A DNA stretch of 64,000 bases from a virus (taxonomy: Duplodnaviria; Caudoviricetes). The stretch lies in the IMG/VR virus record IMGVR_UViG_3300020187_001966; one strand, written 5' to 3'. The first letter of the stretch is position 1, and every line of letters begins with the position of its first letter. Position numbers and translations under genes: made by a program. The notes under the pieces are model-generated. The model searched no databases, was not told the origin of the DNA, and saw nothing but the letters and a program-made list of their open reading frames with translations. Shown piece after piece: positions 7,698 through 59,719 of this stretch.

Positions 7698-8846
7698 ATG
7701 AGAATTGAAAATGAAGTACTGTTGGACTACAGCGATGTCTTGATTCGTCCAAAGCGTAGCACATTAGGCTCACGCAAAGAAGTAAACTTAGAACGTGAAT
7801 TTACATTCCGTAATTATAACAAACAAGACATTATGTCTGGAGAATATGATTGGAAAGGTGTTCCAATTATGGCAAGCAACATGGATGGTGTTGGTACATT
7901 TGAAATGGCAGACAAACTTGCTGAAGGCAACATCTTTACATGTCTAGTTAAAACATATAGTGAACAAGATTTAATCAAATACTTTACATCTGATTTACCT
8001 GAGCGTAGTGACTATGTTGCTATGAGTATTGGTATTCAGGATCGTGACTTAAACAAATTTGAAAAAGTTTATACAGTATGTAAAGAAAATTTAAAATACG
8101 TTTGTATTGATGTGGCAAACGGATACAGTCAACGTTTTGTGGAGTTTGTGGGAGAATTTAAATTCCGCTTTCCTAAAGTAGTAATTATTGCTGGTAATGT
8201 GGTTACGGCAGATCAAACGCAAGAGTTAATACTAAATGGAGCAGACATAGTTAAAGTTGGTATTGGACCAGGTAGTGTATGTACCACTCGTATTCAAACT
8301 GGTGTGGGATATCCACAGCTCAGTGCCGTTATTGAGTGCGCTGATGCCGCTCATGGCCTTGGTGGTCATATTATTGCTGACGGTGGGTGTACCTGTCCTG
8401 GCGATATTGCTAAGGCTTTTGCGGGCGGGGCCGACTTTGTAATGCTAGGCGGTATGCTTGCTGGACACGATGAAGGTGGTGGTGACGTAATTACCCGATA
8501 CTATGAAACTAGTGAACTAGAATATCAAGTTGGCGAGCATTTGGCCAATTGTGTACATAAAGTAGAAGAAAAACAATTCATAAAGTTCTACGGAATGAGC
8601 AGTGATGCGGCAAACACTAAACACTTTGGCGGACTTAAAGAGTATCGTTCAAGTGAAGGACGTGAAGTGCTTGTGCCTTATCGTGGTGAAATTGCTAGAA
8701 CTGTGCAAAACATTCTGGGCGGCGTTCGCAGTACATGTACATACGTTGGTGCCAATACACTAAAGCAACTGAGTAAATGTACAACATTTATTCGTGTAAA
8801 CAACCAGTTTAATAAAACGTATGAGTCTACTACCACCAAGTTATAG
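7698..8846 (+). CDS. guaC: GMP reductase
   Basis: [51 protein letters not shown]. Confidence 0.95.
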
Positions 8847-9481: not shown

Positions 9482-9678
9482 TGACTGTAGCAACAATGAA
9501 ATCAAACACATGGGGAATTACATGTAAAACATGTGCCATTCTTTCAAAAGCAATTGTAGCAACTGGAATGTTTTTATGGGCATTTGGTGAGTCAGCTGGA
9601 AGAGCAAGAGCAGCAAGTGAATTATACCGTCAAGGGTATGTAGAAGAAGCAAGAAGATTAATGACGGAGAATAATTAA
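9481..9678 (+). CDS. small hypothetical protein
   Basis: Coupled ORF with [20 protein letters not shown] motif. Confidence 0.6.
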
Positions 9679-9899
9679 TGACTGGTGATATAGCAACGTT
9701 TGGCGCAATGATTGGCGCAGGGTTAGCAACAATTGGAATGGGCGGAGCAGCCATTGGTGTTGGAATGATTGTAGGTAGTGTACTTAAAGTAATGCCTAAG
9801 AAAAGTGACACAGGCACAATGTTTGTTGGTGTAGCATTTGCGGAAGCATTAGGAATATTTGCATTCTTAGTAGCACTGCTATTAATGTTTGCTGTCTAA
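9678..9899 (+). CDS. atpE: ATP synthase F0 subunit c-like protein with altered polar loop
   Basis: [17 protein letters not shown] glycine zipper; [20 protein letters not shown] helix with H+-binding Glu; loop lacks R-N/Q-P. Confidence 0.88.
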
Positions 9900-10426: not shown

Positions 10427-10645
10427 ATGCAACATTCTATTGAGGATCTTCTAAGAAGACTTGAAGTAATGAAAGACAAAGCTATTCTGTTACATCGAGT
10501 TCGTAATGAGTTTAGTGAAATATCATATAAAGATTATGACAAAGCAGCTTGTCAAAATATTATAGATGATATACAAGCAATGGCATTGGGCATTGCGAAT
10601 GATAAAGAAGGTACTGATATTATTACTGAGATGGAATATAAATGA
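10427..10645 (+). CDS. hypothetical protein
   Basis: GGAGG RBS, ATAAATA upstream. Confidence 0.65.
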   Translation: MQHSIEDLLRRLEVMKDKAILLHRVRNEFSEISYKDYDKAACQNIIDDIQAMALGIANDKEGTDIITEMEYK

Positions 10646-11196
10646 ACTTATCAGGTGATTTTTTAATCAGCATTCCAGCTGTAAATACTGGAACATTTAA
10701 TCGCAGTGTTGTTCTTATGAATAAGCACACTGGCGATGGAGCGTCTGGTTGGATAGTTAATAAACAATTAGATGATAAAATAACACAACGTTTACGCAAA
10801 GGTATGAATCTTACTCGTGACATACCATTATACTTTGGTGGTCCAGTAGACGTAAACAATGCTGTTGTTATACACAGTAATGATTTAAAATTACCTAGTA
10901 CAAGAAAACTTAATGATACACTAAGCATCACAAAAGACAAGAGTATTGTCAACGTAATGAACATTGGACAATTTCCTGAATACTGGAGAGTAATTGTTGG
11001 TAGAAGTTCATGGGGAGCAGGACAACTAGAAAGCGAAATACTTGGCAGCCGTACAAATGGCATTGGTACTTGGATGTCAATAGACTATACTGATCAGTTA
11101 ATGTGGCAAACAATGCCAAGTAATCAGTGGGAACGCAGTATTGAACTAAGTGCCACACAATTGACTAATAATATTTTAAAAATACCAAATATGTAA
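10642..11196 (+). CDS. YqgE/AlgH (DUF179) family protein
   Basis: FLISIP...FNRSVV...H...GASGWIVNK, LYFGGPV, GRSSWGAGQLESEI. Confidence 0.88.
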   Translation: MNLSGDFLISIPAVNTGTFNRSVVLMNKHTGDGASGWIVNKQLDDKITQRLRKGMNLTRDIPLYFGGPVDVNNAVVIHSNDLKLPSTRKLNDTLSITKDKSIVNVMNIGQFPEYWRVIVGRSSWGAGQLESEILGSRTNGIGTWMSIDYTDQLMWQTMPSNQWERSIELSATQLTNNILKIPNM

Positions 11197-11254: not shown

Positions 11255-11455
11255 ATGTGTTCACCAGAATTGCGTAAAGAAGCTAATAGACTAAACTGGA
11301 TGATTAAAGGTCAACTTATTGACTCGTCCGAATCAGACTCCACAGTTGAAAGAATTTATCATTCATATTTTCAAAGACTTTGGAATAACAACGAGAACTA
11401 CCTTCATGAAGAAGGCTTTACCCAAGCGTGGGAGCAGCAATATGGTAGCCAATAG
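11255..11455 (+). CDS. hypothetical protein
   Basis: AAGGAG RBS, GTAAATA upstream. Confidence 0.6.
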   Translation: MCSPELRKEANRLNWMIKGQLIDSSESDSTVERIYHSYFQRLWNNNENYLHEEGFTQAWEQQYGSQ

Positions 11456-11660
11456 AATAACAGAGCTAACTGAAGATGAACTAACATTTATGGAAGATTT
11501 ATTACTAACTGAGTTTAGTAAAGAAGCTGAAAAAGCAAAAACTTGGAAATCAAAAAACCATTACCAACTCCCACATGGAAAACAAAATAGAATACTAAGT
11601 TGTCTAAGCGCAGTTAGAAGTCAAAAACAACTTAAAAAGACATTAGCCACTAAGTGGTAA
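11442..11660 (+). CDS. hypothetical protein
   Basis: Likely ATG 11442 after GGAG; listed ORF starts at 11319. Confidence 0.5.
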   Translation: MVANRITELTEDELTFMEDLLLTEFSKEAEKAKTWKSKNHYQLPHGKQNRILSCLSAVRSQKQLKKTLATKW

Positions 11661-11661
11661 T

Positions 11662-11761
11662 TGGCTCTGGGGGTAGGATTCGAACCTACACGATAAATAT
11701 TTTGCGAACATCTACCACACGATAAACAGTCGTGCGTGTCTACCACTTTCACCACCCCAGA
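11662..11761 (-). tRNA. atypical tRNA, anticodon GUU (Asn), class-II long variable arm, CCA encoded
   Basis: TCTGGGG/CCCCAGA acceptor, G73, D arm GTG-AAAGTGGTAGA-CAC, anticodon arm CACGA-CTGTTTA-TCGTG, 10-bp V stem, T arm GTAGG-TTCGAAT-CCTAC. Confidence 0.9.
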
Positions 11762-11768
11762 TCAATTT

Positions 11769-12611
11769 TTAGGCGGCTTTGTCTAAACTTTGTAGTTTAT
11801 CCAGTGCGGCAATCATACGTGTCATGCCAATGCCACCACCTACTCTTTGGAAGAAGTCAAACTTGAGGAACTCTTCTAGTTCTGCTTCTACACGTTCTTT
11901 ACCAAACAATTTAAACAGCAGCTCAGCATAGTCTCCGTCTACAATACTGTGGAATGTATCACGCATCATATCAACATCACAACTACGTTCTGCTGATCCA
12001 ATAGTTTCCATACCACCTAAGATAACATCCATCTTCTTAGCAGTATTGCCATCATCGTTACGTGCCATGTTCCAGAAAGGTGATGTTAGTTCTGGGAAGT
12101 CTGTAATTAAACAACTACCAAAGTTCATATCCATTGCTAATTCGTGTTGTGCGTCCATTTCAGTTGATTGACTTACACCAAAGTGTTTTTGCCAGTCGCT
12201 GTATGTTTTTTCTGTTAGTGGGTCAAAGCCCAAGTAATCACATAGTTCAATTTCCATCTTTTTAAGATCATCTACATCGCCCGGCATCTCAAACTCAAAC
12301 ATTGGGAAGATAATGTCGTGTCTGCCTGGTATAGCGTTTGGTTCCTGTCTATAGGACGTTGACACACAAAAAAAGCCCTTACTATCGGGCTTGCTTAATA
12401 ATTCATGTTCTAACCACATCTGGCCTGTTTGCGGTAATGGCCAAACCTGGTCTGCGTAATTGTATGTTGCTACATTGAACGGATCTTCACATGCGGCAAG
12501 TATGCTTAGTCTATTTTGGGTATGTACTTCTAAGAAGCCTTTGTCCAAAAAAAATGACCTTAAAAGGCCAACTGTGTCTGTAAATTTTTGTGGGTTTATG
12601 AGTTGCGTCAT
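11769..12611 (-). CDS. class IIb aminoacyl-tRNA synthetase-like catalytic domain (Asp/Asn type) without anticodon-binding OB fold; AsnRS2/asparagine synthetase-like
   Basis: Motif 2 SYRQE...RH..FPMFEFE, MDVILGGMETIGSAER, motif 3 GGGIGMTRMI; only 280 aa. Confidence 0.85.
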   Translation of the reverse strand: MTQLINPQKFTDTVGLLRSFFLDKGFLEVHTQNRLSILAACEDPFNVATYNYADQVWPLPQTGQMWLEHELLSKPDSKGFFCVSTSYRQEPNAIPGRHDIIFPMFEFEMPGDVDDLKKMEIELCDYLGFDPLTEKTYSDWQKHFGVSQSTEMDAQHELAMDMNFGSCLITDFPELTSPFWNMARNDDGNTAKKMDVILGGMETIGSAERSCDVDMMRDTFHSIVDGDYAELLFKLFGKERVEAELEEFLKFDFFQRVGGGIGMTRMIAALDKLQSLDKAA

Positions 12612-12687
12612 CTTTTTTTCCTTTTCTGAAATTCAGCCTAAAAAAAATTAGCTCAAAAAAATTTGAGTGTGTTTTTTCTATCCAGTC

Positions 12688-12694
12688 TATTTAG
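12688..12694 (-). promoter_or_regulatory. late-type promoter CTAAATA for the aaRS-like/tRNA unit
   Basis: Reverse-strand CTAAATA about 77 nt upstream of start 12611. Confidence 0.55.
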
Positions 12695-12712
12695 TCTTTT
12701 CTATAATAAGGC

Positions 12713-12743
12713 TTGACATCCTCTTGTGTTTAGTATATAAATA
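12713..12743 (+). promoter_or_regulatory. tmRNA promoter (sigma70 and overlapping late motif)
   Basis: TTGACA 12713-12718, 17-bp spacer, TATAAA; full TATAAATA 12736-12743. Confidence 0.75.
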
Positions 12744-12746
12744 GAC

Positions 12747-13088
12747 TGTAACGTTGAAGTGATTTGACGACTATACTGGACCCGGGGGCGGTACCCGGCG
12801 ACTCCACCATAAACACATTAGGTTTGAAATATAACCTCTCTTTCCCGAGATGATAACTCGATATAGAGGACCTAGAAATAGGGTAAAGAATAAGAGTGCT
12901 AGTGTGTTTTTGATGGGGTCGAAATAGGATCGACAGGTAGGATAGATGAGTGGAGTTACCGGGATATAAGCGCCGTTACCGCGAATAAACTTTCTAAATG
13001 CAAACGCAAATAGAGCGCCAGAAATGGCTTTAGCTGCCTAATTAGGTAAGTGGGGGTTTGTAACGCACCTAGCAACAGAAGCGTTACA
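12747..13088 (+). ncRNA. ssrA: circularly permuted two-piece tmRNA
   Basis: Acceptor piece ends CGACTCC-A-CCA at 12809; 105-nt intervening segment; coding piece starts GGGGTCG at 12915 (G3-U70); tag ORF 13000-13041 ANANRAPEMALAA*. Confidence 0.95.
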
Positions 13089-13144
13089 CTATGACGGCTG
13101 AAACATAGGTTAAAGTACAGCCAACACAAAAGGAAACCTAATTA

Positions 13145-14224
13145 ATGAAATTATTAAAACTATTTTCCGCAACATTATTAATGTTGGGGTCTTTAGCTGT
13201 GTCAGCACAAGCAGATGCACCTAAGGATAACATCACGGTCGGATTTATTTACGTCGGACCAACTGGTGACCACGGATGGACATACCGTCACGATATTGGT
13301 CGTCAGCAAGTAGAAGAAGCATACGGCGACAGAGTAACAACACGATTTGTTGAAAGTGTAGCAGAAGGTGCTGACGCTGAACGTGTAATGACACAAATGG
13401 CACTACAGGGCGCAGACATTATTTTTGCGACATCATTTGGATATATGGATCCAATAATGAACGTAGCAAAGAAGTTTCCAAACGTAAAGTTTGAACATGC
13501 TACAGGTTATAAATCATCTGACAACGTTGCTAACTATGGTTTGAAACTATACCAAGCAAGACACGTACAAGGTGTTGTAGCAGGTATGATGACAAAAACA
13601 AACAAAATTTGTTATATTGCTTCATTCCCAATTCCAGAAGTTATGCGTGAGATTAACACGTTCTTCTTGGGTGCACGTAAGTACAATCCAGATGTAGAAC
13701 TATCAATTGCGTGGGTTTACACATGGTATGATCCAGGTAAAGAAAAAGATGCGGCAACAGCATTGATTGACCAAGGTTGTGACATTGTAGCACAGCATAC
13801 TGACTCACCTGCTCCACTACAATCAGCAGAACAAGCAGGCGTACTTGGATTTGGACAAGCAAGTGATCAAATGAAGTTTGCTCCTAACGCACAATTGACA
13901 GCAACTATTGACAATTGGGGTCCTTACTATATTAAGAAAGTAGGACAAGTACTAGACGGTACATGGGAAACAGGCGATTACTTTGGACACATGAACGAAG
14001 ACGCTGTACAAATGGCACCGTTTGCTAACATGCCAGCTGACGTACAAGCAGAAGCACAGCGTGTAAAAGATGCTATTAGCGCAGGTGAGTTATTTGGATT
14101 TACAGGTCCAATTAACAAGCAAGACGGAACAGTGTTCCTGAAAGAAGGCGAAGTAGCAACTAGACAGCAACTAGACACTATGATGTTCTATGTCGAAGGC
14201 ATTACATCAAAGGTACCTGGTTAA
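13145..14224 (+). CDS. BMP family ABC transporter substrate-binding protein (purine/nucleoside type)
   Basis: Signal peptide; VGFIYVGP.GDHGWTY.HD.GR, IFATSFGYMD, QHTDS. Confidence 0.92.
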   Translation: MKLLKLFSATLLMLGSLAVSAQADAPKDNITVGFIYVGPTGDHGWTYRHDIGRQQVEEAYGDRVTTRFVESVAEGADAERVMTQMALQGADIIFATSFGYMDPIMNVAKKFPNVKFEHATGYKSSDNVANYGLKLYQARHVQGVVAGMMTKTNKICYIASFPIPEVMREINTFFLGARKYNPDVELSIAWVYTWYDPGKEKDAATALIDQGCDIVAQHTDSPAPLQSAEQAGVLGFGQASDQMKFAPNAQLTATIDNWGPYYIKKVGQVLDGTWETGDYFGHMNEDAVQMAPFANMPADVQAEAQRVKDAISAGELFGFTGPINKQDGTVFLKEGEVATRQQLDTMMFYVEGITSKVPG

Positions 14225-15084
14225 TGATTCCAGTAATTGATTTACAAGCATCAGACGCTTTAGATCGCATTGACGAAGCCTACACAACAGTAGGCTTCGC
14301 AGTGTTTACAAATGCGTTAACTGAAACACATCAACAAGACATCAAGTCTTGGCAAGAACAAATGAAAGCATTCTTTGAACTGCCAATGGATAAAAAACAA
14401 AGTTATCCTTATAACGCAGATACTAACTTGGGTTATAGCATGGTAGGCGACGAAAACGTTGATCCTACAGCACCAAAAGATATCAAAGAAAGTTTTAACT
14501 ACAACAATACACGTATGCCAGAAGACCTTTGGCCTACAGAATTACCAGAGTTTAAAGCAACAGCCTTACAAAGTATTGACATTGCAGATAAACTTACTAT
14601 GAAAATATTATCTAAGTTTGATACTATTTTAGATAGTGGAACTACACTAGTAGATTCACATTTACAACCATTTAACACAACAAGAGTTATTCACTATCCA
14701 GCATATACTGGACCAGTACAAGATAAACAAATGCGTATAGGAGAACACAGTGACTACGGCACTATTACATTACTATGGCAGATTAATGATGTTCCTGGGC
14801 TTCAAGTCCAAGATCTCAAAGAAGAGTGGCACCCGGTCCCGTATGCGGATGATGGAGTAGTTGTTAACATTGGTGACTTACTACAGCGTTGGACTAACGA
14901 TTATTTTAAAAGTACTAAACATCGTGTAGTTAACAGTCATATACATCAACAAAGATATTCGATGCCACACTTTGTAGACCCAACACCCGGCACAATAGTA
15001 CAAAACTTACGTGACGAACAATCAAAATATGAGCCCATTGAGTCAAAAGAATATTTGATGTGGCGTCTAGCACAGAGTTATTAA
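14224..15084 (+). CDS. 2OG-Fe(II) oxygenase, IPNS/DIOX_N family
   Basis: IPVID, HSDYGTITLL, VNIGDLLQRWTND...STKHRV, RYS.P.F. Confidence 0.92.
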   Translation: MIPVIDLQASDALDRIDEAYTTVGFAVFTNALTETHQQDIKSWQEQMKAFFELPMDKKQSYPYNADTNLGYSMVGDENVDPTAPKDIKESFNYNNTRMPEDLWPTELPEFKATALQSIDIADKLTMKILSKFDTILDSGTTLVDSHLQPFNTTRVIHYPAYTGPVQDKQMRIGEHSDYGTITLLWQINDVPGLQVQDLKEEWHPVPYADDGVVVNIGDLLQRWTNDYFKSTKHRVVNSHIHQQRYSMPHFVDPTPGTIVQNLRDEQSKYEPIESKEYLMWRLAQSY

Positions 15085-15085
15085 A

Positions 15086-15601
15086 ATGAAACAATACATA
15101 ACAAGTTACCAAAACTTTCCAATTGATGGAATTGATTATAAGGATGTAGCAAGTTTATGCGCATCACAAGATGGTTACGCAGAAGCAAATAACTTTATAT
15201 ACAGTAACTTACTAAAATATTGTCCTGTAGATAAAATTATTGGTATTGATGCTCGTGGATTTATATTTGCTAGTGTGTTTGCTCATCGTACAAGAGGCCC
15301 ACTAGTACTAGCACGGAAACCTGGTAAACTTCCTGGTAAGATAGCTGAAAAAGAATACGATTTAGAATACGGAACAAATAAATTACAAATACAAGCAGAT
15401 AGTATTGAAGCAGGAGACCGTTGCCTTATTATTGATGACTTAATGGCAACTGGTGGCACAATGTGCGCAGTATTGGATTTAGTACAAGAATTAAATGCTT
15501 TTACTGTGGCAGTAGCAACTGTTATTGACCTACCTAAATTAGGTGGAAGCGACTTAGTAAAAGCTCGTGGTATACCATTTTACACAGGTGTTGAATACTA
15601 A
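15086..15601 (+). CDS. apt: adenine phosphoribosyltransferase
   Basis: IGIDARGFIF, ARKPGKLPG, YDLEYG, LIIDDLMATGGT. Confidence 0.92.
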   Translation: MKQYITSYQNFPIDGIDYKDVASLCASQDGYAEANNFIYSNLLKYCPVDKIIGIDARGFIFASVFAHRTRGPLVLARKPGKLPGKIAEKEYDLEYGTNKLQIQADSIEAGDRCLIIDDLMATGGTMCAVLDLVQELNAFTVAVATVIDLPKLGGSDLVKARGIPFYTGVEY

Positions 15602-16212
15602 TGCAACACAATACACATGGATTTGAGATAGAAGAAAACGAACATGATGTTGTTGATAAAGACTATCCAGAAATTAAAGCAAGAGTAGAACAAACTGAAT
15701 GGGTAGTAAAATTAAAAAACCAAGCAGGTGAAGAATGGAAAACAAAATGTACAGATCACTATGCTTGGAAAGCTGCAGAATATATTATGGAATTGGAGAA
15801 GCAACTAATGGTATTTAGAACAGGCGCAGACTTATTTGAAGTAGGTGACTTTACAAGTCACGCAGGAAATAAACTAGCATGGAAGATTGAGTGCGATGCT
15901 ATACGCCCAGAGTGGTGGGACGGATTAGCACGTATGATTATGGATTATCAAACAGAACCTTTTAGTAAGGTAGTTGGTATTCCACGTGGCGGAATGGCAT
16001 TAGCACACGCTATGGAAAAATATGTAACACCAGGCGATCATCCTTGGATGGTTGTGGATGATGTATATACTACAGGTACAAGTTTTAGAGAATTCTGTAC
16101 AGACAATCAAACAATGTTTGCATACAAGTGGTGCGCATTTGCTCGTAAGCCTATTGAAGGCAATGAGTCACATGACGTAAGAGCATTGTTTACTATGCCA
16201 CAAAGTACTTGA
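15601..16212 (+). CDS. phosphoribosyltransferase-like protein (PyrE-like domain) with extra N-terminal domain
   Basis: GDFTSHAG..L.WKIECDA, VGIPRGG, VVDDVYTTGTS PRPP loop. Confidence 0.75.
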   Translation: MQHNTHGFEIEENEHDVVDKDYPEIKARVEQTEWVVKLKNQAGEEWKTKCTDHYAWKAAEYIMELEKQLMVFRTGADLFEVGDFTSHAGNKLAWKIECDAIRPEWWDGLARMIMDYQTEPFSKVVGIPRGGMALAHAMEKYVTPGDHPWMVVDDVYTTGTSFREFCTDNQTMFAYKWCAFARKPIEGNESHDVRALFTMPQST

Positions 16213-24624: not shown

Positions 24625-26667
24625 ATGCGTAAGATATTATTCTCTCCAATATGGAGTGTGCTTGTACTACTACTTCTTACTTGGGTGTATAGTAGTAACC
24701 CAGTATTTCTAGATAGTTTAAGGTTGAGATACTTTGACCAACTAATAGTAAATCAAGAGCCAATTGAAAATAACATATACACTGTTAACATAGACGAAGC
24801 AAGTTTAGAAGAAAAAGGACAATGGCCCTGGCCACGTGGAGACTATAGTGAGTTAATTATAGACTTATATGACCGTGGTGCTGGCTTAGTTGTGTTTAAT
24901 GTACTAATGGCTGAAACTGATCGAGCAGGAGAGGATCAAGATTTAGCATTAACAATGCAACAGTTACCAGTTATCCTAAACATGCTGGGCGCAGATGAGA
25001 ATAAAAACGAAGCAATTAATCCTGGTGCTACTATTGTTAATAGTGACTTTATGTACCTTATACCCAGCCGTGAAGGTGTTATAGCAAACGTACCAGACAT
25101 AGAATTTTCATCAGTTGGCAGTGGCATCGTAGATACATTCCCAGAAGCTGATGGTGTAACAAGACGTATGCCAATGGTTATAGAAAGCCAAGGCACACTT
25201 TATCCAAGTGTTACAATGGAAGTATTACGAGTTATTGCTGGAGATCCTAGTTTTCAGATTAAGTTAAATGAATTTGGTGTTGACAAACTACGCATACCAC
25301 AGTTTGGTATTATACAAACAGATGGACTTGGGCGTGTTTGGATTGACTGGAGTCAAAAGAATAAAAGTTATAGCACAACAAACTTACCAGACGACTTTGA
25401 TGGCGGCATAGTATTTGTTGGCCCAACAGCGGCAGGTGTTTCACAGCCAGTAGCAACAGCGGCGGGCAGTATATACCCACACGAAATACATGCCACTATA
25501 CTTGGCACAGTGTTTAACAAAAGTAATATTGAACGACCTGCTTGGGCTTTTGATGCTGAAATGTTAGGCTTCTTATTAGTAGGACTTTTTGTTATTGTAC
25601 TAGCACGTTGGACTTATGCTGGCATTATAGTATTTGTAGTCGCAGTAGGTGGTTCAATATTTTATAGCATATATAGTTTTAATAACTATAACTATTTGAT
25701 TGATGGCGCTACATCTAGTGCCTTTTTAATACTAGTGGGCATGACTAGGTATATAGTTAAATTTGTAGATGAATTCCTACAAAAACAAGAAATTAAGAAA
25801 CAGTTTGGCGGATACGCATCACCTACAGTTGTTAAACTACTACAAGAAAATCCAGCACTCATTAAAGATGGTGTAAAGAAAGAAGTTAGTATCGTGTTTA
25901 GTGACTTGCGTGGCTTTACTCCACTAGGTGAGAGTTTTGGTGACGATGTAAAAGGCCTAACTAAAATAATGAATGGCTACATGGATAGTATTACACAGCC
26001 TGTATTAGACAGTGATGGAATGATTATTAAGTATATAGGCGATGCTAGTATGCACATACACAATGCGCCTATAGATGATCGTCACCATCCAAGAACCGCA
26101 GTACAATGTGGATTAGATATGTTAGCGGCAGTGGATAAATTTAATGAAGAAGTTATTATTCCACAAGGTAGACCAGCAGTAGGCATGGGCGCAGGTATCA
26201 ATACAGGACTTGGTTATATTGGTGAGATGGGATCAACAGCTAGACACAGTTATGATGTTTTGGGAGACGCAGTAAGTACTGCCGCACGTATTGAATCAAA
26301 ATGTAAAGAGTACGGATGTTTACTACTAGTAGGCGATGCTACATACCAAACAACTAAGTCAGACTTCTTTTACTTAAAGATAGATGACTTAGCAGTTAAA
26401 GGCAAGAGTGTTGGTGTTGGTATATGGACAGTATTAGATCAGAAGCGTCCAGCTTGGCGTAAAGCACAAAAGAAACACCAAGATATGTATGAAGACTATC
26501 TGGCGCAAAGATTTGATGACGCAATAGACAAGTGTAAGATGTTACATGATCACTTTGACGGACAAATGGCTGGCTACTATGATATGTGGATTGAGCGTTG
26601 TGAATTCCAAAAGACACAAGACTTACCTAAAGATTGGAATGGCGTGTTTTTTGCCCAAACCAAGTAA
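24625..26667 (+). CDS. CHASE2 domain class III adenylate/guanylate cyclase
   Basis: VNIDE.SL...GQWPWPR, DGVTRR, 3 TM, FSDLRGFT, KYIGDA, GINTG, YDVLGDAVSTAARIE. Confidence 0.93.
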   Translation: MRKILFSPIWSVLVLLLLTWVYSSNPVFLDSLRLRYFDQLIVNQEPIENNIYTVNIDEASLEEKGQWPWPRGDYSELIIDLYDRGAGLVVFNVLMAETDRAGEDQDLALTMQQLPVILNMLGADENKNEAINPGATIVNSDFMYLIPSREGVIANVPDIEFSSVGSGIVDTFPEADGVTRRMPMVIESQGTLYPSVTMEVLRVIAGDPSFQIKLNEFGVDKLRIPQFGIIQTDGLGRVWIDWSQKNKSYSTTNLPDDFDGGIVFVGPTAAGVSQPVATAAGSIYPHEIHATILGTVFNKSNIERPAWAFDAEMLGFLLVGLFVIVLARWTYAGIIVFVVAVGGSIFYSIYSFNNYNYLIDGATSSAFLILVGMTRYIVKFVDEFLQKQEIKKQFGGYASPTVVKLLQENPALIKDGVKKEVSIVFSDLRGFTPLGESFGDDVKGLTKIMNGYMDSITQPVLDSDGMIIKYIGDASMHIHNAPIDDRHHPRTAVQCGLDMLAAVDKFNEEVIIPQGRPAVGMGAGINTGLGYIGEMGSTARHSYDVLGDAVSTAARIESKCKEYGCLLLVGDATYQTTKSDFFYLKIDDLAVKGKSVGVGIWTVLDQKRPAWRKAQKKHQDMYEDYLAQRFDDAIDKCKMLHDHFDGQMAGYYDMWIERCEFQKTQDLPKDWNGVFFAQTK

Positions 26668-33777: not shown

Positions 33778-34083
33778 ATGAAATTAACTATATCAGACTC
33801 AGCAAAACAATATCTTAATAAGATGATTGAAAACGAAAACAAACGCTATGTTACACTAGATGTTAAAGGCGGCGGTTGTAGTGGCTTTCGATATGAATGG
33901 AACTTCAGTGATGAAGTATCGGGCAATTTAATTGACGATATTTTAGTTATTGATGTAATGGCTGAGATGTTTTTATTTGGATGTACAGTTGACTATGTAC
34001 AAGAATTAGGCGGCAGTTACCTTACTGTTGTTAACCCTAACGCAACTGCTAGTTGCGGCTGTGGCGAATCGTTCGCAGTTTAA
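33778..34083 (+). CDS. IscA/HesB A-type Fe-S carrier
   Basis: [25 protein letters not shown]; ATG 33778 lies 5 nt after TAAATA. Confidence 0.92.
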
Positions 34084-34097
34084 TAAACGAGGAAAAT

Positions 34098-35042
34098 ATG
34101 AAAATAATTACAGGAAGTAGCAATACTGCTTTTGCTAAAGCGGTTGCTGATCATTGCTTCACTGAGTTAGTTCCAGCAGAACTAAATCGGTTTAGTGATG
34201 GAGAAATATGTGTAGAAGTACATGAGAACATTCGTGGTGCGGATGTTTTTTTAGTGAATAGCACTTGTACACCAGTTAACGATAGTTTAATGGAAATGCT
34301 GATAATGATTGATACTGCCAAGCGTAGTAGTGCTAGTCGTATTACGGCAGTTATCCCTTACTTTGGGTACGCACGCCAAGATCGTAAAAGTGCTTCAAGA
34401 ACACCCATTACTGCCAAACTAGTTGCTGACTTACTAACTACAGCAGGTGCAGATCGTGTACTCACAATGGATTTACACGCAGGACAGATTCAAGGCTTTT
34501 TTGATATTCCAGTGGACGATTTAACAAGCCGTGTAGTGTTTGCTAAAGACATTAAAAAACAATTTTACAAAGACGGCAGTGACATCAATACTGTAGAGAC
34601 AGTATTTGTTTCACCAGACGCAGGCGGTGCTGTAAGAGCTCGTAAGTTTGCTGATATGTTCCATGGCGATATTGCTATTGTAGACAAACGTAGACCTCGA
34701 GCAGGTGTTAGTGAAGTAATGGCACTGATTGGTGATGTTAAAGGTAAACATGCTATCCTAGTAGATGATATTGTTGATAGTGGAGGCACACTATGTAAAG
34801 CCGCAGAAGCTATCTTGGATGCTGGCGCACTAAGTGTTAGAGCATACATTACACATGGTGTACTAAGCAATGGTGCTAGTAAAAAGATTGAAGCTAGTAA
34901 ACTAGAAGAATTAGTTATCAGTGATAGTATTCCTTATGATGGCAAAAGTACAAAAGTTAGACAAGTAAGTTTAGCACCATTATTTGGCGAAGCAATGCGC
35001 CGTATTACAAATGAAGAAAGTGTGAGTAGTTTATTCCAATGA
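34098..35042 (+). CDS. prs: ribose-phosphate pyrophosphokinase
   Basis: [44 protein letters not shown]. Confidence 0.97.
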
Positions 35043-57484: not shown

Positions 57485-59719
57485 ATGTCACAAAACGACC
57501 CAAAAATAGAAGCACTAGTAGAACGCCTATTTCAATTGACTCGAGGGTACAAACATGAATATGTTACACTAGAACATCTACTAGCTATATTGCTGGAAAC
57601 AGAAGAAGTACAGGATATTTTCTATGATATTGACAAAGATCCAAAGGTAACTAGAGATCTAGTTATCACTTATCTAGAAACTGAAGTTGATAGTATTGAC
57701 AAGGAAGAGTTTCAACCACAAAAGACAGTTATGCTAGAGCGTGTGTTTAATCGTGCGTTTACACAAGCAATGTTTAATGGTAGACAGAAACTTGACCCAC
57801 GTGACTTGCTTATTAGTATCTTAACAGAAGAGCAATCGCCATCTGTTGTATTGCTAAATCAACTTGACATTACTAGAGAAGACTTAATCTCATATCTAAC
57901 TAATGAAGCAACTGAAGAAGCAGAAGCTAATACTCGTGATAAACCATTAAAGCAAGAACGTATACTAGAAAAGTTTTGTGACAATCTAAATATGTTAGCT
58001 AATAATGGTGAAATTGATCCTATGATTGGTCGAGAAACTGAGCTTGAGCAACTTGTACAAACTATTGCTAGACGTAAAAAGAACAACGTTATCCTAGTAG
58101 GCGAAAGTGGTGTTGGTAAAACTGCTATTGCTGAAGGACTAGCACATCTAATTAATGAAGATCGTGTTCCGGATGTTATTAAAGACAATACTATCTATAG
58201 TTTGGATATTGGTTCACTACTAGCAGGTACTAAGTTTAGAGGTGACTTTGAAGAACGTCTTAAAGAAGTTTTGGATGTACTAGAGCGCCGTGACGATGCT
58301 ATCTTGTTTATTGATGAGATTCATATGATTATGGGAGCAGGCAGTGCTGGACAAGGAGCAATGGACGTTGCTAACTTACTAAAGCCAGCATTACAAAAAG
58401 GCAAACTACGTTGTATTGGTAGTACAACATATGACGAGTATCGTGAAACCTTTGAAAAAGACAAAGCACTTAATCGTCGTTTTTATAAAGTAGATATTCC
58501 AGAGCCCACAGTGGGGGATGCTAAACGTATTGTACGTGCTGCTATTCCAGCATATGAATTATATCATGAACTAGCATACGACCAAAAGGCATTGGATGGT
58601 GCTGTTGACTTAACACACCAATACTGGCACAACCGTCAGTTACCAGATAAAGCATTTGATGCTCTGGATGCGGCGGCGGCAAGACAAGCATTACTACCAA
58701 TAGAAGATCGTAAGAGTGTACTAGAGCTTGATGACATCCGTTATGAGGTTGCTAAACTAACACGCATTCCAGTAGATCAATTAGTGCTAACAAAAGACAG
58801 TGAGTACAAAACTGAAAAGCCAGTTGATATTGAACGTATTGTTACATCAAAAGTATTTGGACAAGACGAAGCTATTACAAGACTAGCAGATAGTATCTAC
58901 ATTGCTAAAGCAGGACTTAAAGATCCAAACAAACCAGTTGGCAGTTACTTGTTTACAGGACCAACAGGTGTAGGTAAAACAGAAACAGCAAAACAACTTA
59001 GTGATGCTATGAGTATGCCACTTGTACGTTTTGATATGAGTGAATACCAAGAGCGTCATACAGTTGCTAAACTAATTGGTGCGCCTCCAGGATACGTAGG
59101 TTATGGCGAAGGTGGACAAGGCAGTGGGTTGCTGGTAAACAAACTAGAAGAAAATCCAAACTGTATCTTGTTGCTAGATGAGATTGAAAAGGCACACCCA
59201 GATGTAAGTAATGTATTGCTACAACTTATGGACAATGGTATGATTACAAATAGTGAAGGCAAAAGTGTTAGCGCACGTAATGCGATTGTTATCTTAACCA
59301 GTAACTTAGGTGCTAGAGATGCTGAACGTAATACAATTGGGTTTGGTGATAACGATAATACAACAGCAAGTAATGAAGCAGTTAAACGTTTCTTTAGTCC
59401 AGAGTTTCGTAACCGCTTAGACGCAGTTGTACAGTTTAATAAACTAGATAAGACATTAATGAAACAAGTTACTAATAAGTTTATTAAAGAGTTGCGTGAT
59501 ATGTTAACACCACGTGGTGTGGCAATGTCGCATAGTACACAAGTTCTTGATTGGTTAACTGATAATGGATTTACTCCTAGTATGGGAGCAAGACCAATGG
59601 CACGTTTAATTAATGAAAAGATTAAAAAGCCACTTGCTAAAACATTACTATTTGGTAACGACATTACTAAAGTACACCTAGAGATTGTTGATGATGAGAT
59701 TGTGATTCAAACAAGTTAA
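57485..59719 (+). CDS. clpA: ATP-dependent Clp protease ATP-binding subunit, ClpA type
   Basis: HEYVTLEHLL N-domain; GESGVGKT and GPTGVGKT Walker A; IGFG ClpP-docking loop; GARPM; 744 aa. Confidence 0.92.
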   Translation: MSQNDPKIEALVERLFQLTRGYKHEYVTLEHLLAILLETEEVQDIFYDIDKDPKVTRDLVITYLETEVDSIDKEEFQPQKTVMLERVFNRAFTQAMFNGRQKLDPRDLLISILTEEQSPSVVLLNQLDITREDLISYLTNEATEEAEANTRDKPLKQERILEKFCDNLNMLANNGEIDPMIGRETELEQLVQTIARRKKNNVILVGESGVGKTAIAEGLAHLINEDRVPDVIKDNTIYSLDIGSLLAGTKFRGDFEERLKEVLDVLERRDDAILFIDEIHMIMGAGSAGQGAMDVANLLKPALQKGKLRCIGSTTYDEYRETFEKDKALNRRFYKVDIPEPTVGDAKRIVRAAIPAYELYHELAYDQKALDGAVDLTHQYWHNRQLPDKAFDALDAAAARQALLPIEDRKSVLELDDIRYEVAKLTRIPVDQLVLTKDSEYKTEKPVDIERIVTSKVFGQDEAITRLADSIYIAKAGLKDPNKPVGSYLFTGPTGVGKTETAKQLSDAMSMPLVRFDMSEYQERHTVAKLIGAPPGYVGYGEGGQGSGLLVNKLEENPNCILLLDEIEKAHPDVSNVLLQLMDNGMITNSEGKSVSARNAIVILTSNLGARDAERNTIGFGDNDNTTASNEAVKRFFSPEFRNRLDAVVQFNKLDKTLMKQVTNKFIKELRDMLTPRGVAMSHSTQVLDWLTDNGFTPSMGARPMARLINEKIKKPLAKTLLFGNDITKVHLEIVDDEIVIQTS

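What the first reader, a model, noticed from the sequence alone, without database searches (positions are those of the whole stretch)
11662..12611. Anticodon-domain-less Asp/Asn synthetase paralog paired with a long-variable-arm 'tRNA-Asn' on a tRNA-Leu-like body
Seen: a 280-aa class IIb aaRS catalytic core (motifs 2 and 3, no OB-fold anticodon domain) ends 7 nt before a 100-nt tRNA on the same strand. The tRNA has anticodon GUU, U1-A72 and G73, which are Asn-type marks. It also has a 10-bp variable stem, a Leu-like D loop (AAAGUGGUAGA), an A15-U48 pair and U at position 37. Established: tRNA-Asn normally has a short variable loop and A37 (t6A). Long arms are typical of Leu/Ser/Tyr/Sec. LeuRS needs A73. 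Bacterial GatCAB reads U1-A72. Truncated class II paralogs are known as asparagine synthetases (archaeal AsnRS2) or protein ligases (EpmA). Inference: this may be a dedicated phage enzyme-tRNA pair in which the V arm replaces anticodon recognition. Options are direct charging, amidation of Asp on the tRNA, a non-ribosomal aminoacyl donor, or an anticodon-nuclease-resistant or decoy tRNA.
Basis: partly seen in the sequence, partly recalled or inferred. Interest (0 to 1): 0.9.

Follow-up and report, generated by a model that had tools for sequence, protein, structure and literature searches.

The report
Phage mini-AsnRS with its own tRNA
A marine phage carries a stripped-down asparagine-type tRNA-charging enzyme joined to an oddly built asparagine tRNA, a pairing kept in hundreds of ocean phages but never tested, which may be a natural private enzyme-tRNA pair.

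Summary
ORF 11769-12611 (-) is a 280-aa class IIb synthetase core with no anticodon-binding domain. Seven bases after its stop lies a real 100-nt tRNA (11662-11761, -). It has anticodon GUU, U1-A72, G73, CCA, U37 and a 25-nt variable arm on a tRNA-Leu-like body.

The pairing is not chance. About 150 related loci in two marine T4-like phage clades, including Prochlorococcus phages P-SSM2, P-SSM5 and P-SSM7, keep the tRNA 4-11 nt downstream. A search that started from the tRNA found the enzyme upstream in 78 of 78 loci. The cloverleaf shows strong compensatory change, while GUU, U1-A72 and G73 never vary.

The enzyme's pocket is Asn-type, not Asp-type, and all catalytic residues are intact. The tRNA-linked enzymes form one clade inside a wider uncharacterised family. 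That family occurs in CPR bacteria, DPANN archaea, Chlamydiota, Bacteroidota and huge phages, has no linked tRNA and mostly coexists with normal AsnRS.

Best reading (about 50%): a dedicated Asn-charging pair that does not read the anticodon. Main rival: an asparagine synthetase that merely travels with a tRNA. I found no paper describing it. This scan has flagged the same cassette on other DNA.

The parts
11769..12611 (-). Free-standing AsnRS-like class IIb catalytic core, 280 aa, with motifs 1-3 and no anticodon-binding domain
   Evidence: ORF. Pfam PF00152 only, E 7.6e-17. All NCBIfam matches fall far below cut-off: asnS 29 vs 342.6 bits, AS-A 23.9 vs 389, EpmA 13.6 vs 286.9. A family profile hits AsnRS structures best, 8.9e-14. 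AF2 model has pLDDT 95.2. Foldseek finds AsnRS/AspRS cores at TM 0.73-0.78. The residues are Asn-type: QTGQMWLE and FEFE.
11762..11768 (-). 7-nt spacer between the stop codon and tRNA position 1; the two genes are probably one transcript cut by RNase P
   Evidence: Read from the sequence. The spacing is 4-11 nt in nearly all related loci. Co-transcription and the cut are inferred.
11662..11761 (-). Type II (long variable arm) tRNA with anticodon GUU, U1-A72, G73 and an encoded CCA (11662-11664)
   Evidence: Rfam tRNA 47.1 bits. ARAGORN gene call. Cloverleaf covariation in 45 distinct homologs: 96.2% paired, 19 pairs with compensatory change, 0 of 500 shuffles as high.
11725..11727 (-). Anticodon GUU (positions 34-36), in loop CUGUUUA with U37
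   Evidence: Sequence. G34, U35 and U36 are invariant in every related tRNA seen, while positions 32, 33, 37 and 38 vary.
11692..11716 (-). Variable arm: 25 nt with a stem of 9 clear pairs (a tenth is weakly supported) and a loop containing GCAA
   Evidence: Sequence. The arm is present in all relatives but ranges from about 10 nt (stem of about 3 bp) to about 27 nt. Stem pairs covary: 87% of cells are paired and 5 of 10 pairs change on both sides.

Best explanation
The two genes form one cassette that marine T4-like phages carry as a self-contained unit for decoding asparagine codons.

Shown:
- The enzyme is the bare catalytic core of the AsnRS branch of class IIb synthetases. Its ATP-binding and amino-acid-binding residues are intact and its pocket is Asn-type.
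- The RNA is a genuine, selected tRNA. It combines the Asn anticodon GUU and an Asn-type acceptor end (U1-A72, G73) with a tRNA-Leu-like body that has a long variable arm.
- In this phage clade neither gene occurs without the other.

Inferred mechanism:
1. Both genes are transcribed together, and RNase P frees the tRNA 7 nt after the stop codon.
2. The enzyme forms Asn-AMP and transfers Asn to the 3' end of its partner tRNA. It recognises the acceptor end, and perhaps the body or variable arm, because it has no domain to read the anticodon.
3. The long arm, which faces the side from which class IIb enzymes approach, keeps the host's full-length AspRS or AsnRS off this tRNA.
4. Asn-tRNA(GUU) then reads AAC and AAU on host ribosomes.

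This would give the phage a one-step supply of Asn-tRNA that does not depend on the host's two-step route (non-discriminating AspRS plus GatCAB) or on host tRNA-Asn.
For: Linkage:
- The tRNA lies 4-11 nt after the stop in 76 of 80 loci at 80-99% identity.
- It is present in 73 of 73 cyanophage-clade loci with enough downstream DNA.
- It is present in isolates P-SSM7, P-SSM2 and P-SSM5.
- In the reverse direction, 78 of 78 loci found with a tRNA-only pattern have the enzyme directly upstream.
- The tRNA-linked enzymes form one clade with SH-aLRT 95.
- It is the only match to the tRNA model in the 252-kb P-SSM2 genome and the only tRNA in this 64-kb window. It therefore travels with the enzyme, not with a tRNA array.

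tRNA function: all four standard stems pair in 100% of cells and show compensatory changes. GUU, U1-A72, G73 and the tertiary bases are invariant. CCA is encoded in the pelagimyophage-like clade but not in the cyanophage clade.

Enzyme:
- The motif 2 Arg, the RH pair, the AER Arg and the motif 3 GGGIGxTR are invariant.
- At the three positions that separate AsnRS from AspRS, the family has the AsnRS state. These are L67 and E68 in QTGQMWLE (AsnRS QSSQLYLE or QSGQLYGE; AspRS QSPQLFKQ) and E106 (AsnRS E; AspRS D).
- The family profile hits AsnRS structures best, and the family is sister to AsnRS when the tree is rooted on AspRS.
- E. coli AsnA lacks these motifs and barely aligns: hhalign E 0.014, probability 3%.

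Host side: only 3 of 121 sampled alphaproteobacterial genomes have an AsnRS above the curated cut-off (one of the 121, G037, is unpublished). The class suggested by the phage's alpha-type tmRNA therefore mostly uses the indirect route.
Against: - No activity has been measured.
- The enzyme has no RNA-binding appendage. It is strongly acidic: 25 K/R against 47 D/E, net -22. The tRNA-linked clade averages -19 against -11.6 for tRNA-less homologs, and no basic residue is specific to the tRNA-linked clade.
- Homologs with identical catalytic residues occur without any linked type II tRNA in huge phages and in CPR, DPANN, Chlamydiota, Dependentiae, Bacteroidota and alphaproteobacterial MAGs. They sit beside a full AsnRS in 4 of 5 genomes tested. 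The family's ancestral job is therefore probably not housekeeping tRNA charging.
- The only characterised free-standing Asx-type cores (AsnA, archaeal AS-AR) are asparagine synthetases (PMC9437257).
- U37 rules out t6A37, and some lineages have C33. Both are odd for an efficient decoder.
- Asn codon use in the window is ordinary: 5.5% of codons, AAT 408 and AAC 348.
- Host identity is inferred. The nearest isolates infect SAR11 and OM43 and lack the cassette.
Confidence: 0.5

Rival explanations
1. The enzyme is a tRNA-independent asparagine synthetase (Asp + ATP + NH3 to Asn), like AsnA or archaeal AS-AR. The tRNA is a separate passenger charged by a host enzyme. The cassette simply bundles Asn supply with an Asn tRNA.
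For: - All characterised free-standing Asx-type cores are asparagine synthetases (PMC9437257).
- Cellular and huge-phage homologs have no linked tRNA.
- In 4 of 5 cellular genomes they coexist with a full AsnRS. Two of those five (a Chlamydia and an Absconditabacterales genome) have AsnRS but no AsnA or AsnB above cut-off, so they need some source of Asn.
- The protein is very acidic with no RNA-binding appendage.
- A Glu/Arg pocket could in principle hold the alpha-amino-acid end of a flipped Asp (inference).
Against: - It does not explain why the tRNA has a type II body, or why enzyme and tRNA are inseparable in both directions.
- The family is not AsnA: hhalign E 0.014, and the QxGQ..LE and ExE motifs are absent.
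- It scores far below the AS-A models, 23.9 vs 389 bits, and hits AS-AR 3P8T only at 1.2e-4 against 8.9e-14 for AsnRS.
- In hosts without AsnRS (3 of 121 Alphaproteobacteria have one) free Asn cannot feed translation, so bundling it with a tRNA-Asn would make little sense.
Confidence: 0.22
2. The main value of the pair is to survive tRNA-targeting conflict. The tRNA would be a nuclease-resistant or otherwise host-independent replacement for host tRNA-Asn, with loop positions 32, 33, 37 and 38 changing to escape anticodon nucleases. The enzyme would be needed because the altered tRNA is no longer a host substrate. This is a purpose layered on the charging model rather than a different chemistry.
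For: - GUU is invariant, but the flanking loop positions vary between lineages: CUGUUUA, CUGUUAA, CUGUUCA, UUGUUUC, CUGUUUC and CCGUUUA.
- Phage tRNAs are proposed to evade host anticodon nucleases through loop mutations (PMC10264068).
- The cassette is retained even in phages with no other tRNA.
Against: - No nuclease that targets tRNA-Asn is known in the likely hosts.
- No defence or counter-defence gene is consistently nearby.
- The loop variation could equally be relaxed constraint.
Confidence: 0.12
3. The enzyme loads Asp (like a non-discriminating AspRS) onto the tRNA, or amidates Asp already on it. Host GatCAB, which reads U1-A72, or the enzyme itself then completes Asn-tRNA.
For: - U1-A72, the bacterial GatCAB determinant (established knowledge), is invariant, as is G73.
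- The likely host class mostly lacks AsnRS and so has the GatCAB route.
Against: - The pocket lacks the AspRS Lys and has the AsnRS states at all three discriminating positions, in every member examined.
- U1-A72 and G73 are also ordinary features of bacterial tRNA-Asn charged directly.
Confidence: 0.08
4. The tRNA is charged with another amino acid by a host type II enzyme (LeuRS or SerRS) and deliberately misreads Asn codons, or it donates an amino acid outside the ribosome.
For: - The body is tRNA-Leu-like.
- G73 together with a long arm are features of bacterial tRNA-Ser (established knowledge).
- Dedicated pairs of a synthetase paralog and an anomalous tRNA that cause mistranslation exist: ProRSx with tRNAProX (PMC10404621).
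Against: - G73 removes the A73 that LeuRS needs.
- The acceptor stem is not Ser-like.
- No conserved third gene (transferase or carrier) accompanies the cassette.
- The adjacent enzyme has an Asn-type pocket.
Confidence: 0.04

Closest known systems
Asparaginyl-tRNA synthetase (class IIb), catalytic domain; e.g. PDB 2XTI/2XGT, 8H53, 1X54
   Same: Same fold (Foldseek TM 0.71-0.78). It is the best profile match, 8.9e-14. Motifs 1-3 are present, and the Asn-type residues L/E after QxGQ and E in the second motif 2 strand are shared. The family is sister to AsnRS in the tree.
   Different: It has no N-terminal OB-fold anticodon-binding domain or hinge. Identity is about 17-20%. It scores 29 bits against the 342.6-bit asnS cut-off. 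The branch is long. Its partner tRNA has a long variable arm.
Asparagine synthetase A: E. coli AsnA (PDB 11AS/12AS) and archaeal AS-AR / 'AsnRS2' (PDB 3P8T)
   Same: Both are free-standing class II Asx-type catalytic cores of about 290-330 aa with no tRNA-binding domain. This is the only characterised function for such cores (PMC9437257).
   Different: AsnA aligns only marginally (hhalign E 0.014) and lacks the QxGQ..LE and ExE motifs. AS-AR is a weak hit, 1.2e-4, and the NCBIfam AS-A models score 24 vs 389 bits. Neither enzyme is linked to a tRNA gene.
EpmA (PoxA/GenX), the LysRS-like EF-P lysyl ligase
   Same: It is a class IIb core without an anticodon-binding domain that was redirected to a new acceptor.
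   Different: It is LysRS-derived. The match here is only 13.6-14.4 bits against cut-offs of 264-287. It acts on a protein rather than a tRNA, and no EF-P-related gene sits beside this cassette.
ProRSx with tRNAProX in Streptomyces and relatives (PMC10404621)
   Same: A synthetase paralog is encoded next to an anomalous tRNA whose anticodon does not match its body, and the two work as a dedicated pair.
   Different: That system uses a full-length ProRS isoform and causes deliberate mistranslation. Here the enzyme is truncated, and its pocket and the anticodon agree on Asn.
Bacterial type II tRNA-Leu
   Same: It shares the 3-bp D stem, a D loop of the AAUUGGUAGA type, A15-U48 and the long variable arm. 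The covariance model of the phage tRNAs scores tRNA-Leu at 51-63 bits in huge phages, above canonical tRNA-Asn at 44-49 bits.
   Different: The anticodon is GUU rather than a Leu anticodon. It has G73 instead of A73, U1-A72, and U37.
Phage tRNAs with anticodon-loop changes proposed to escape host anticodon nucleases (PMC10264068)
   Same: It is phage-encoded, the anticodon is kept, and the neighbouring loop positions are altered or variable.
   Different: Those tRNAs have normal bodies and rely on host synthetases. This one has a changed body and its own enzyme.

Membership tests
Canonical AsnRS (class IIb) | Class II catalytic core with motifs 1, 2 and 3 | tested here: met
   Pfam PF00152. 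The SYRxE, RH, AER and GGGIGxTR residues are invariant. The fold matches AsnRS/AspRS cores.
Canonical AsnRS (class IIb) | N-terminal OB-fold anticodon-binding domain | tested here: not met
   The protein is 280 aa and the core match starts at residue 14. The AF2 model shows a single domain. Full AsnRS in the same analysis are 468-506 aa.
Canonical AsnRS (class IIb) | Asn-type rather than Asp-type pocket residues | tested here: met
   L67 and E68 match AsnRS L/G-E, where AspRS has K-Q. E106 matches AsnRS E, where AspRS has D. This holds in all 89 non-degenerate members checked.
Canonical AsnRS (class IIb) | Score above the curated asnS model cut-off | tested here: not met
   TIGR00457 scores 29.1 bits against a cut-off of 342.6. 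NF003037 scores 27.6 against 414.
Canonical AsnRS (class IIb) | Aminoacylates tRNA-Asn with Asn | not testable with these tools
   Needs an enzyme assay.
Asparagine synthetase A (AsnA / archaeal AS-AR) | Free-standing Asx-type core without a tRNA-binding domain | tested here: met
Asparagine synthetase A (AsnA / archaeal AS-AR) | Sequence membership (curated models, AsnA motifs) | tested here: not met
   NF005055 scores 23.9 vs 389 bits. AS-AR 3P8T is hit only at 1.2e-4. E. coli AsnA gives hhalign E 0.014 and has HSLAKWKR and DQWDWE where this family has QTGQMWLE and FEFE.
Asparagine synthetase A (AsnA / archaeal AS-AR) | Converts Asp + NH3 + ATP to Asn | not testable with these tools
   Needs an assay or complementation of an asnA asnB mutant.
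EpmA / PoxA / GenX | LysRS-type core scoring above the curated cut-off | tested here: not met
   TIGR00462 scores 13.6 vs 286.9 bits. NF006828 scores 14.4 vs 264.
Bacterial tRNA-Asn | GUU anticodon, U1-A72 and G73 | tested here: met
   Seen in the sequence and invariant in all aligned relatives.
Bacterial tRNA-Asn | Short (4-5 nt) variable loop and A37 | tested here: not met
   The variable arm is 25 nt and position 37 is U. Relatives have arms of about 10-27 nt and U, A or C at position 37.
Type II tRNA (Leu/Ser/Tyr class) | Variable arm forming its own stem-loop, with a 3-bp D stem | tested here: met
   The covariance model scores tRNA-Leu best elsewhere.
Type II tRNA (Leu/Ser/Tyr class) | Anticodon for Leu, Ser or Tyr (or Sec) | tested here: not met
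   GUU is invariant.
Dedicated synthetase-paralog/tRNA pair (as ProRSx-tRNAProX) | Enzyme and anomalous tRNA genes adjacent and co-inherited | tested here: met
Dedicated synthetase-paralog/tRNA pair (as ProRSx-tRNAProX) | The enzyme specifically charges the partner tRNA | not testable with these tools
   Needs aminoacylation assays.

The most novel reading that the evidence does not exclude
A natural synthetase-tRNA pair that does not read the anticodon. A 280-aa AsnRS core would recognise a tRNA-Leu-shaped tRNA(GUU) only through its acceptor end and body. The pair would be insulated from host class IIb enzymes by the long arm. Abundant ocean phages would use it to keep reading Asn codons independently of the host's AspRS/GatCAB route or of attacks on host tRNA-Asn. 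If so, it would be the smallest known class II synthetase that works in translation, and a ready-made orthogonal pair whose anticodon could be changed freely.
Probability: 0.4. Interest if true: 0.9.

Novelty: new variant of a known kind. Interest (0 to 1): 0.78.

Why it matters
If the enzyme charges its partner, this is a natural example of something thought to need engineering: a minimal synthetase that ignores the anticodon and serves one private tRNA.

- It would show how a class IIb core can pick a tRNA without its OB domain.
- It would explain a type II tRNA-Asn, a combination not expected in bacteria or phages.
- It would offer a compact pair for genetic-code expansion, because the anticodon could be changed without losing charging.

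Ecologically the gene is very common. At least 8000 clusters at 90% identity were scored. It sits in cultured Prochlorococcus phages that can be studied at the bench.

The wider family is itself uncharacterised. It keeps all catalytic residues in CPR bacteria, DPANN archaea, Chlamydiota, Dependentiae and Bacteroidota. Settling the chemistry here would annotate hundreds of 'amino acid--tRNA ligase-related' genes.

If it turns out to be an asparagine synthetase, it is a third, independent derivation of that enzyme from a synthetase. That would be worth knowing, but less surprising.

Tried and rejected
- ARAGORN's call of tRNA-Asp(atc). Rejected: it needs a G-U-rich stem, whereas the GUU fold has a perfect stem that covaries in relatives.
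- Pseudogene or chance tRNA-like hairpin. Rejected on covariation and invariant tertiary bases.
- RNA evidence. Contigs from three metatranscriptome studies cover the gene and tRNA without differences; X8 and X16 each bridge 11300 to about 11870. Contigs in RNA libraries can come from DNA and show no ends, strand or processing, so I draw no conclusion about expression.
- Promoter and terminator scan of 11300-13300. Two promoter-like sites were found against 5.2 expected by chance, and there is no terminator after the tRNA. Not informative.
- Viral-contig scans with divergent queries P0220 and P0163 found nothing. Alignment A1 was too diverse for a genome scan.
- Huge phages LR756501 and LR756508 were searched whole for a type II tRNA(GUU). 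Only tRNA-Leu, tRNA-Ser, other long tRNAs and one canonical tRNA-Asn turned up.
- Search for basic or other residues specific to the tRNA-linked clade. Only eight mostly hydrophobic differences appeared, none basic.
- Codon-supply idea. Asn use in the window is unremarkable.
- Residue-level comparison with archaeal AS-AR. I could not obtain an alignment. AsnA was not found in 26 Bacteroidota genomes searched, so E. coli AsnA was used instead.
- AsnRS status of Prochlorococcus hosts. Not determined: no cyanobacterial genome handle was reachable, and the literature searches gave nothing usable.
- Literature. I found no paper describing the pair. Sullivan et al. 2010 only list 'tRNA ligase' (T4-GC 194) in two of the 16 cyanophage genomes, sizes 741 and 798 bp (PMC3037559); the strain names are not shown in the passage retrieved.
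Full report
**What is there**

On the minus strand, ORF 11769-12611 encodes 280 aa. Its only Pfam match is the class II D/K/N synthetase core, E 7.6e-17, covering residues 14-278. Every curated NCBIfam model is hit far below its cut-off: asnS 29 vs 343 bits, non-discriminating aspS 27 vs 368, asparagine synthetase A 24 vs 389, EpmA 14 vs 287. PHROGs files the protein under phrog_29758, 'unknown function'.

Seven bases after the stop codon a tRNA begins at 11761 and runs to 11662. Rfam scores it at 47.1 bits against a gathering score of 29. Read from the sequence, it has:
- acceptor stem UCUGGGG/CCCCAGA (U1-A72), then G73 and an encoded CCA
- a 3-bp D stem with loop AAAGUGGUAGA
- a perfect anticodon stem with loop CUGUUUA, so GUU with U37
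- A15 and U48
- a 25-nt variable arm with a stem of 9 clear pairs (a tenth pair is weakly supported)
- a standard T arm

ARAGORN finds the same gene but labels it tRNA-Asp(atc) through a poorer fold.

**Setting**

The window looks like part of a large marine myophage:
- GC is about 0.37, and genes are small, dense and mostly on the plus strand.
- Auxiliary metabolic genes are present.
- A permuted alpha-type tmRNA lies just upstream on the other strand.
- Protein similarity points to the OM43 phage Melnitz and Pelagibacter phage HTVC008M.

No whole genome is held for the window. Marine metagenomes from many studies hold the stretch.

**The pairing is conserved**

The nearest cultured relatives of the enzyme are the 'tRNA ligase' genes of Prochlorococcus phages P-SSM7, P-SSM2 and P-SSM5, at 65-68% identity. 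In each, an 85-88-nt tRNA-Asn(GUU) follows within about 8 nt, also with loop CUGUUUA, U1-A72 and G73.

IMG/VR holds at least 596 relatives.
- Of the 80 closest to this window, 76 have the tRNA 4-11 nt downstream. One more is cut by the contig end, and three lack it within 320 nt.
- Of the 80 closest to P-SSM7, all 73 with enough downstream DNA have it.
- A search that used only a pattern from the tRNA returned 80 loci. All 78 with enough upstream DNA carry the enzyme gene directly upstream.

In this lineage, then, neither gene is found without the other. In P-SSM2 (252 kb) it is the only hit to the tRNA model. In this window it is the only tRNA.

**The tRNA is functional**

Across 45 distinct sequences, 96.2% of cells pair and 19 of 30 pairs show changes on both sides. 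No shuffle out of 500 reaches this, and sliding the partners drops pairing to 40-60%. The acceptor, D, anticodon and T stems pair in 100% of cells.

U1-A72, G73, G34-U35-U36, U8, A14, G18G19 and the T-loop bases never vary.

What does vary is unusual:
- Position 37 is U in most sequences, and A or C in some.
- Position 33 is C in several lineages.
- Positions 32 and 38 change.
- The variable arm ranges from about 10 to about 27 nt.

CCA is encoded in the pelagimyophage-like clade and absent in the cyanophage clade.

A covariance model of these tRNAs scores tRNA-Leu best in genomes that lack the cassette, at 51-63 bits. Canonical tRNA-Asn reaches 44-49 bits. This supports a Leu-like body.

**The enzyme**

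An AlphaFold model built with 37 diverse homologs has pLDDT 95. It superposes on AsnRS and AspRS catalytic domains at TM 0.71-0.78. A family profile hits AsnRS structures best (8.9e-14 to 9e-11). Archaeal and eukaryotic AspRS come next, then archaeal AS-AR at 1.2e-4 and EpmA-like proteins at about 1e-4.

The residues that bind ATP are invariant: the motif 2 Arg, the RH pair and the motif 3 Arg.

Three positions separate AsnRS from AspRS in the real sequences I fetched from genomes that hold a family member. At all three, the family has the AsnRS state:

| Position | This family | AsnRS | AspRS |
|---|---|---|---|
| After QxGQ | QTGQMWLE | QSSQLYLE / QSGQLYGE | QSPQLFKQ |
| Second motif 2 strand | FEFE | IEPE / VEAE | IDVE |

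From memory, these correspond to K198, Q199 and D233 of E. coli AspRS.

E. coli AsnA barely aligns (hhalign E 0.014, probability 3%). It has different residues at these motifs.

**The wider family**

At least 8000 clusters at 90% identity matched, and 446 clusters at 50% identity match at E below 1e-10. Most members are 260-300 aa.

Relatives at 42-59% identity lie in ordinary chromosomal neighbourhoods. The lineages are Weeksellaceae/Moheibacter, Chitinophagales, CPR bacteria, DPANN archaea, Chlamydiota, Dependentiae and alphaproteobacterial MAGs. NCBI names them 'amino acid--tRNA ligase-related protein'. They keep every catalytic residue but have no linked type II tRNA.

I tested five such genomes:
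- four have a full AsnRS
- three have AsnB
- none has AsnA
- four have GatB

Huge phages LR756501 and LR756508 and two IMG/VR relatives also lack the tRNA.

In a tree rooted on AspRS, the family is sister to AsnRS on a long branch. The tRNA-linked enzymes form one clade (SH-aLRT 95) nested among tRNA-less members. So a marine myophage lineage took up a pre-existing cellular enzyme and coupled it once to a remodelled tRNA.

**How it most likely works**

The charging model explains the most features together:
- the inseparable pair
- the Asn-type pocket matched with an Asn anticodon and an Asn-type acceptor end
- a tRNA body that full-length class IIb enzymes, which approach from the variable-loop side (established structural knowledge), should not tolerate
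- an enzyme that has lost exactly the domain that would collide with the long arm

Only 3 of 121 sampled alphaproteobacterial genomes have a canonical AsnRS. That tally includes the unpublished genome G037 among the 118 without one; it would be 3 of 120 without it. A host of that class would therefore make Asn-tRNA by the two-step AspRS/GatCAB route, and a one-step phage supply would be independent of it.

This purpose is inferred. The host is not known, and the tmRNA type is not a safe guide, because Melnitz carries an alpha-type tmRNA but infects OM43 (PMC9004378).

**What argues against it**

- The protein is very acidic (net -22) and shows no basic residues specific to the tRNA-linked clade.
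- The tRNA-less homologs with identical active sites suggest the ancestral activity does not need this tRNA.
- The only characterised free-standing Asx cores are asparagine synthetases (PMC9437257).
- A Glu/Arg pocket might also hold a flipped aspartate.
- U37 and C33 are poor features for a decoder.

I therefore put the charging model at about 0.5 and the synthetase-plus-passenger model at about 0.2. The nuclease-evasion purpose, Asp charging and other uses share the rest.

**Known or new**

The genes have sat in public records since 2005-2010, labelled 'tRNA ligase' and 'tRNA-Asn'. I found no paper that notes the missing domain, the type II body or the pairing.

Other windows of this scan raised the same cassette, and three follow-up agents reached similar verdicts. 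These are not independent evidence.

I rate it a new variant of a known kind: a synthetase paralog with a dedicated tRNA.

Noticed in passing
window 12688-13132 (+): A permuted (two-piece) alpha-type tmRNA with tag ANANRAPEMALAA. It is transcribed away from the cassette across an intergenic region of roughly 80-100 bp. Rfam alpha_tmRNA scores 127 bits. RNA-library contigs pile up on its conserved parts, mostly from other organisms' tmRNAs.
   Followed up: partly
window 9678-9899 (+): A 73-aa ORF matches ATP synthase subunit c (Pfam ATP-synt_C, 2.1e-11), which is odd cargo for a phage. It sits in a run of small hydrophobic ORFs.
   Followed up: no
window 7698-8846, 10642-11196, 13145-16212, 24625-26667, 34053-35042, 57485-59719: A dense set of host-like genes: IMPDH/GMP reductase, AlgH-like DUF179, a Bmp/PnrA-type substrate-binding protein, a 2OG-Fe(II) oxygenase, a phosphoribosyltransferase, an adenylate/guanylate cyclase-like protein (51% identical to Melnitz), PRPP synthase and a 744-aa ATP-dependent protease.
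   Followed up: partly
L096:119-217 and L096:913-1011 (huge phage LR756508, about 9.4-10.3 kb): Two 99-nt tRNAs with long variable arms whose anticodon loops read CUUUGGA (UGG, Pro) and CUUCGAA (UCG, Arg). These are further examples of long arms on tRNAs that normally have short ones.
   Followed up: no
L255:1429-2316 and L255:2521-2593 (MAG 'bacterium C24_maxbin.066'): A cellular-type family member (42% identity) is followed by a terminator-like hairpin. About 205 nt later lies a canonical 73-nt tRNA-Asn(GUU) with U1-A72, G73 and A37. This may be chance: it is 1 of about 70 tRNA-less loci.
   Followed up: partly
L086:3001-3849 and L087:3001-3870 (P0220, P0196): Divergent chromosomal homologs (34-38% identity) lie beside lpxB/rpmB/rpmG or ftsA/ftsZ. 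They have lost catalytic residues: the AER Arg is His, or the motif 3 Arg is missing. They are probably no longer adenylate-forming enzymes.
   Followed up: partly
L182-L188, L199 (genome contigs): Cassette-bearing phage contigs are binned into MAGs labelled Flavobacteriaceae, Legionellales, Neomarinimicrobiota, Poseidoniia and others. This is likely mis-binning of phage DNA, so those labels say nothing about hosts.
   Followed up: no
L083:409-1287; L076: In a few relatives the enzyme's reading frame runs on into, or well past, the usual stop, so the ORF overlaps the start of the tRNA. tRNA processing would then cut inside the coding region.
   Followed up: no
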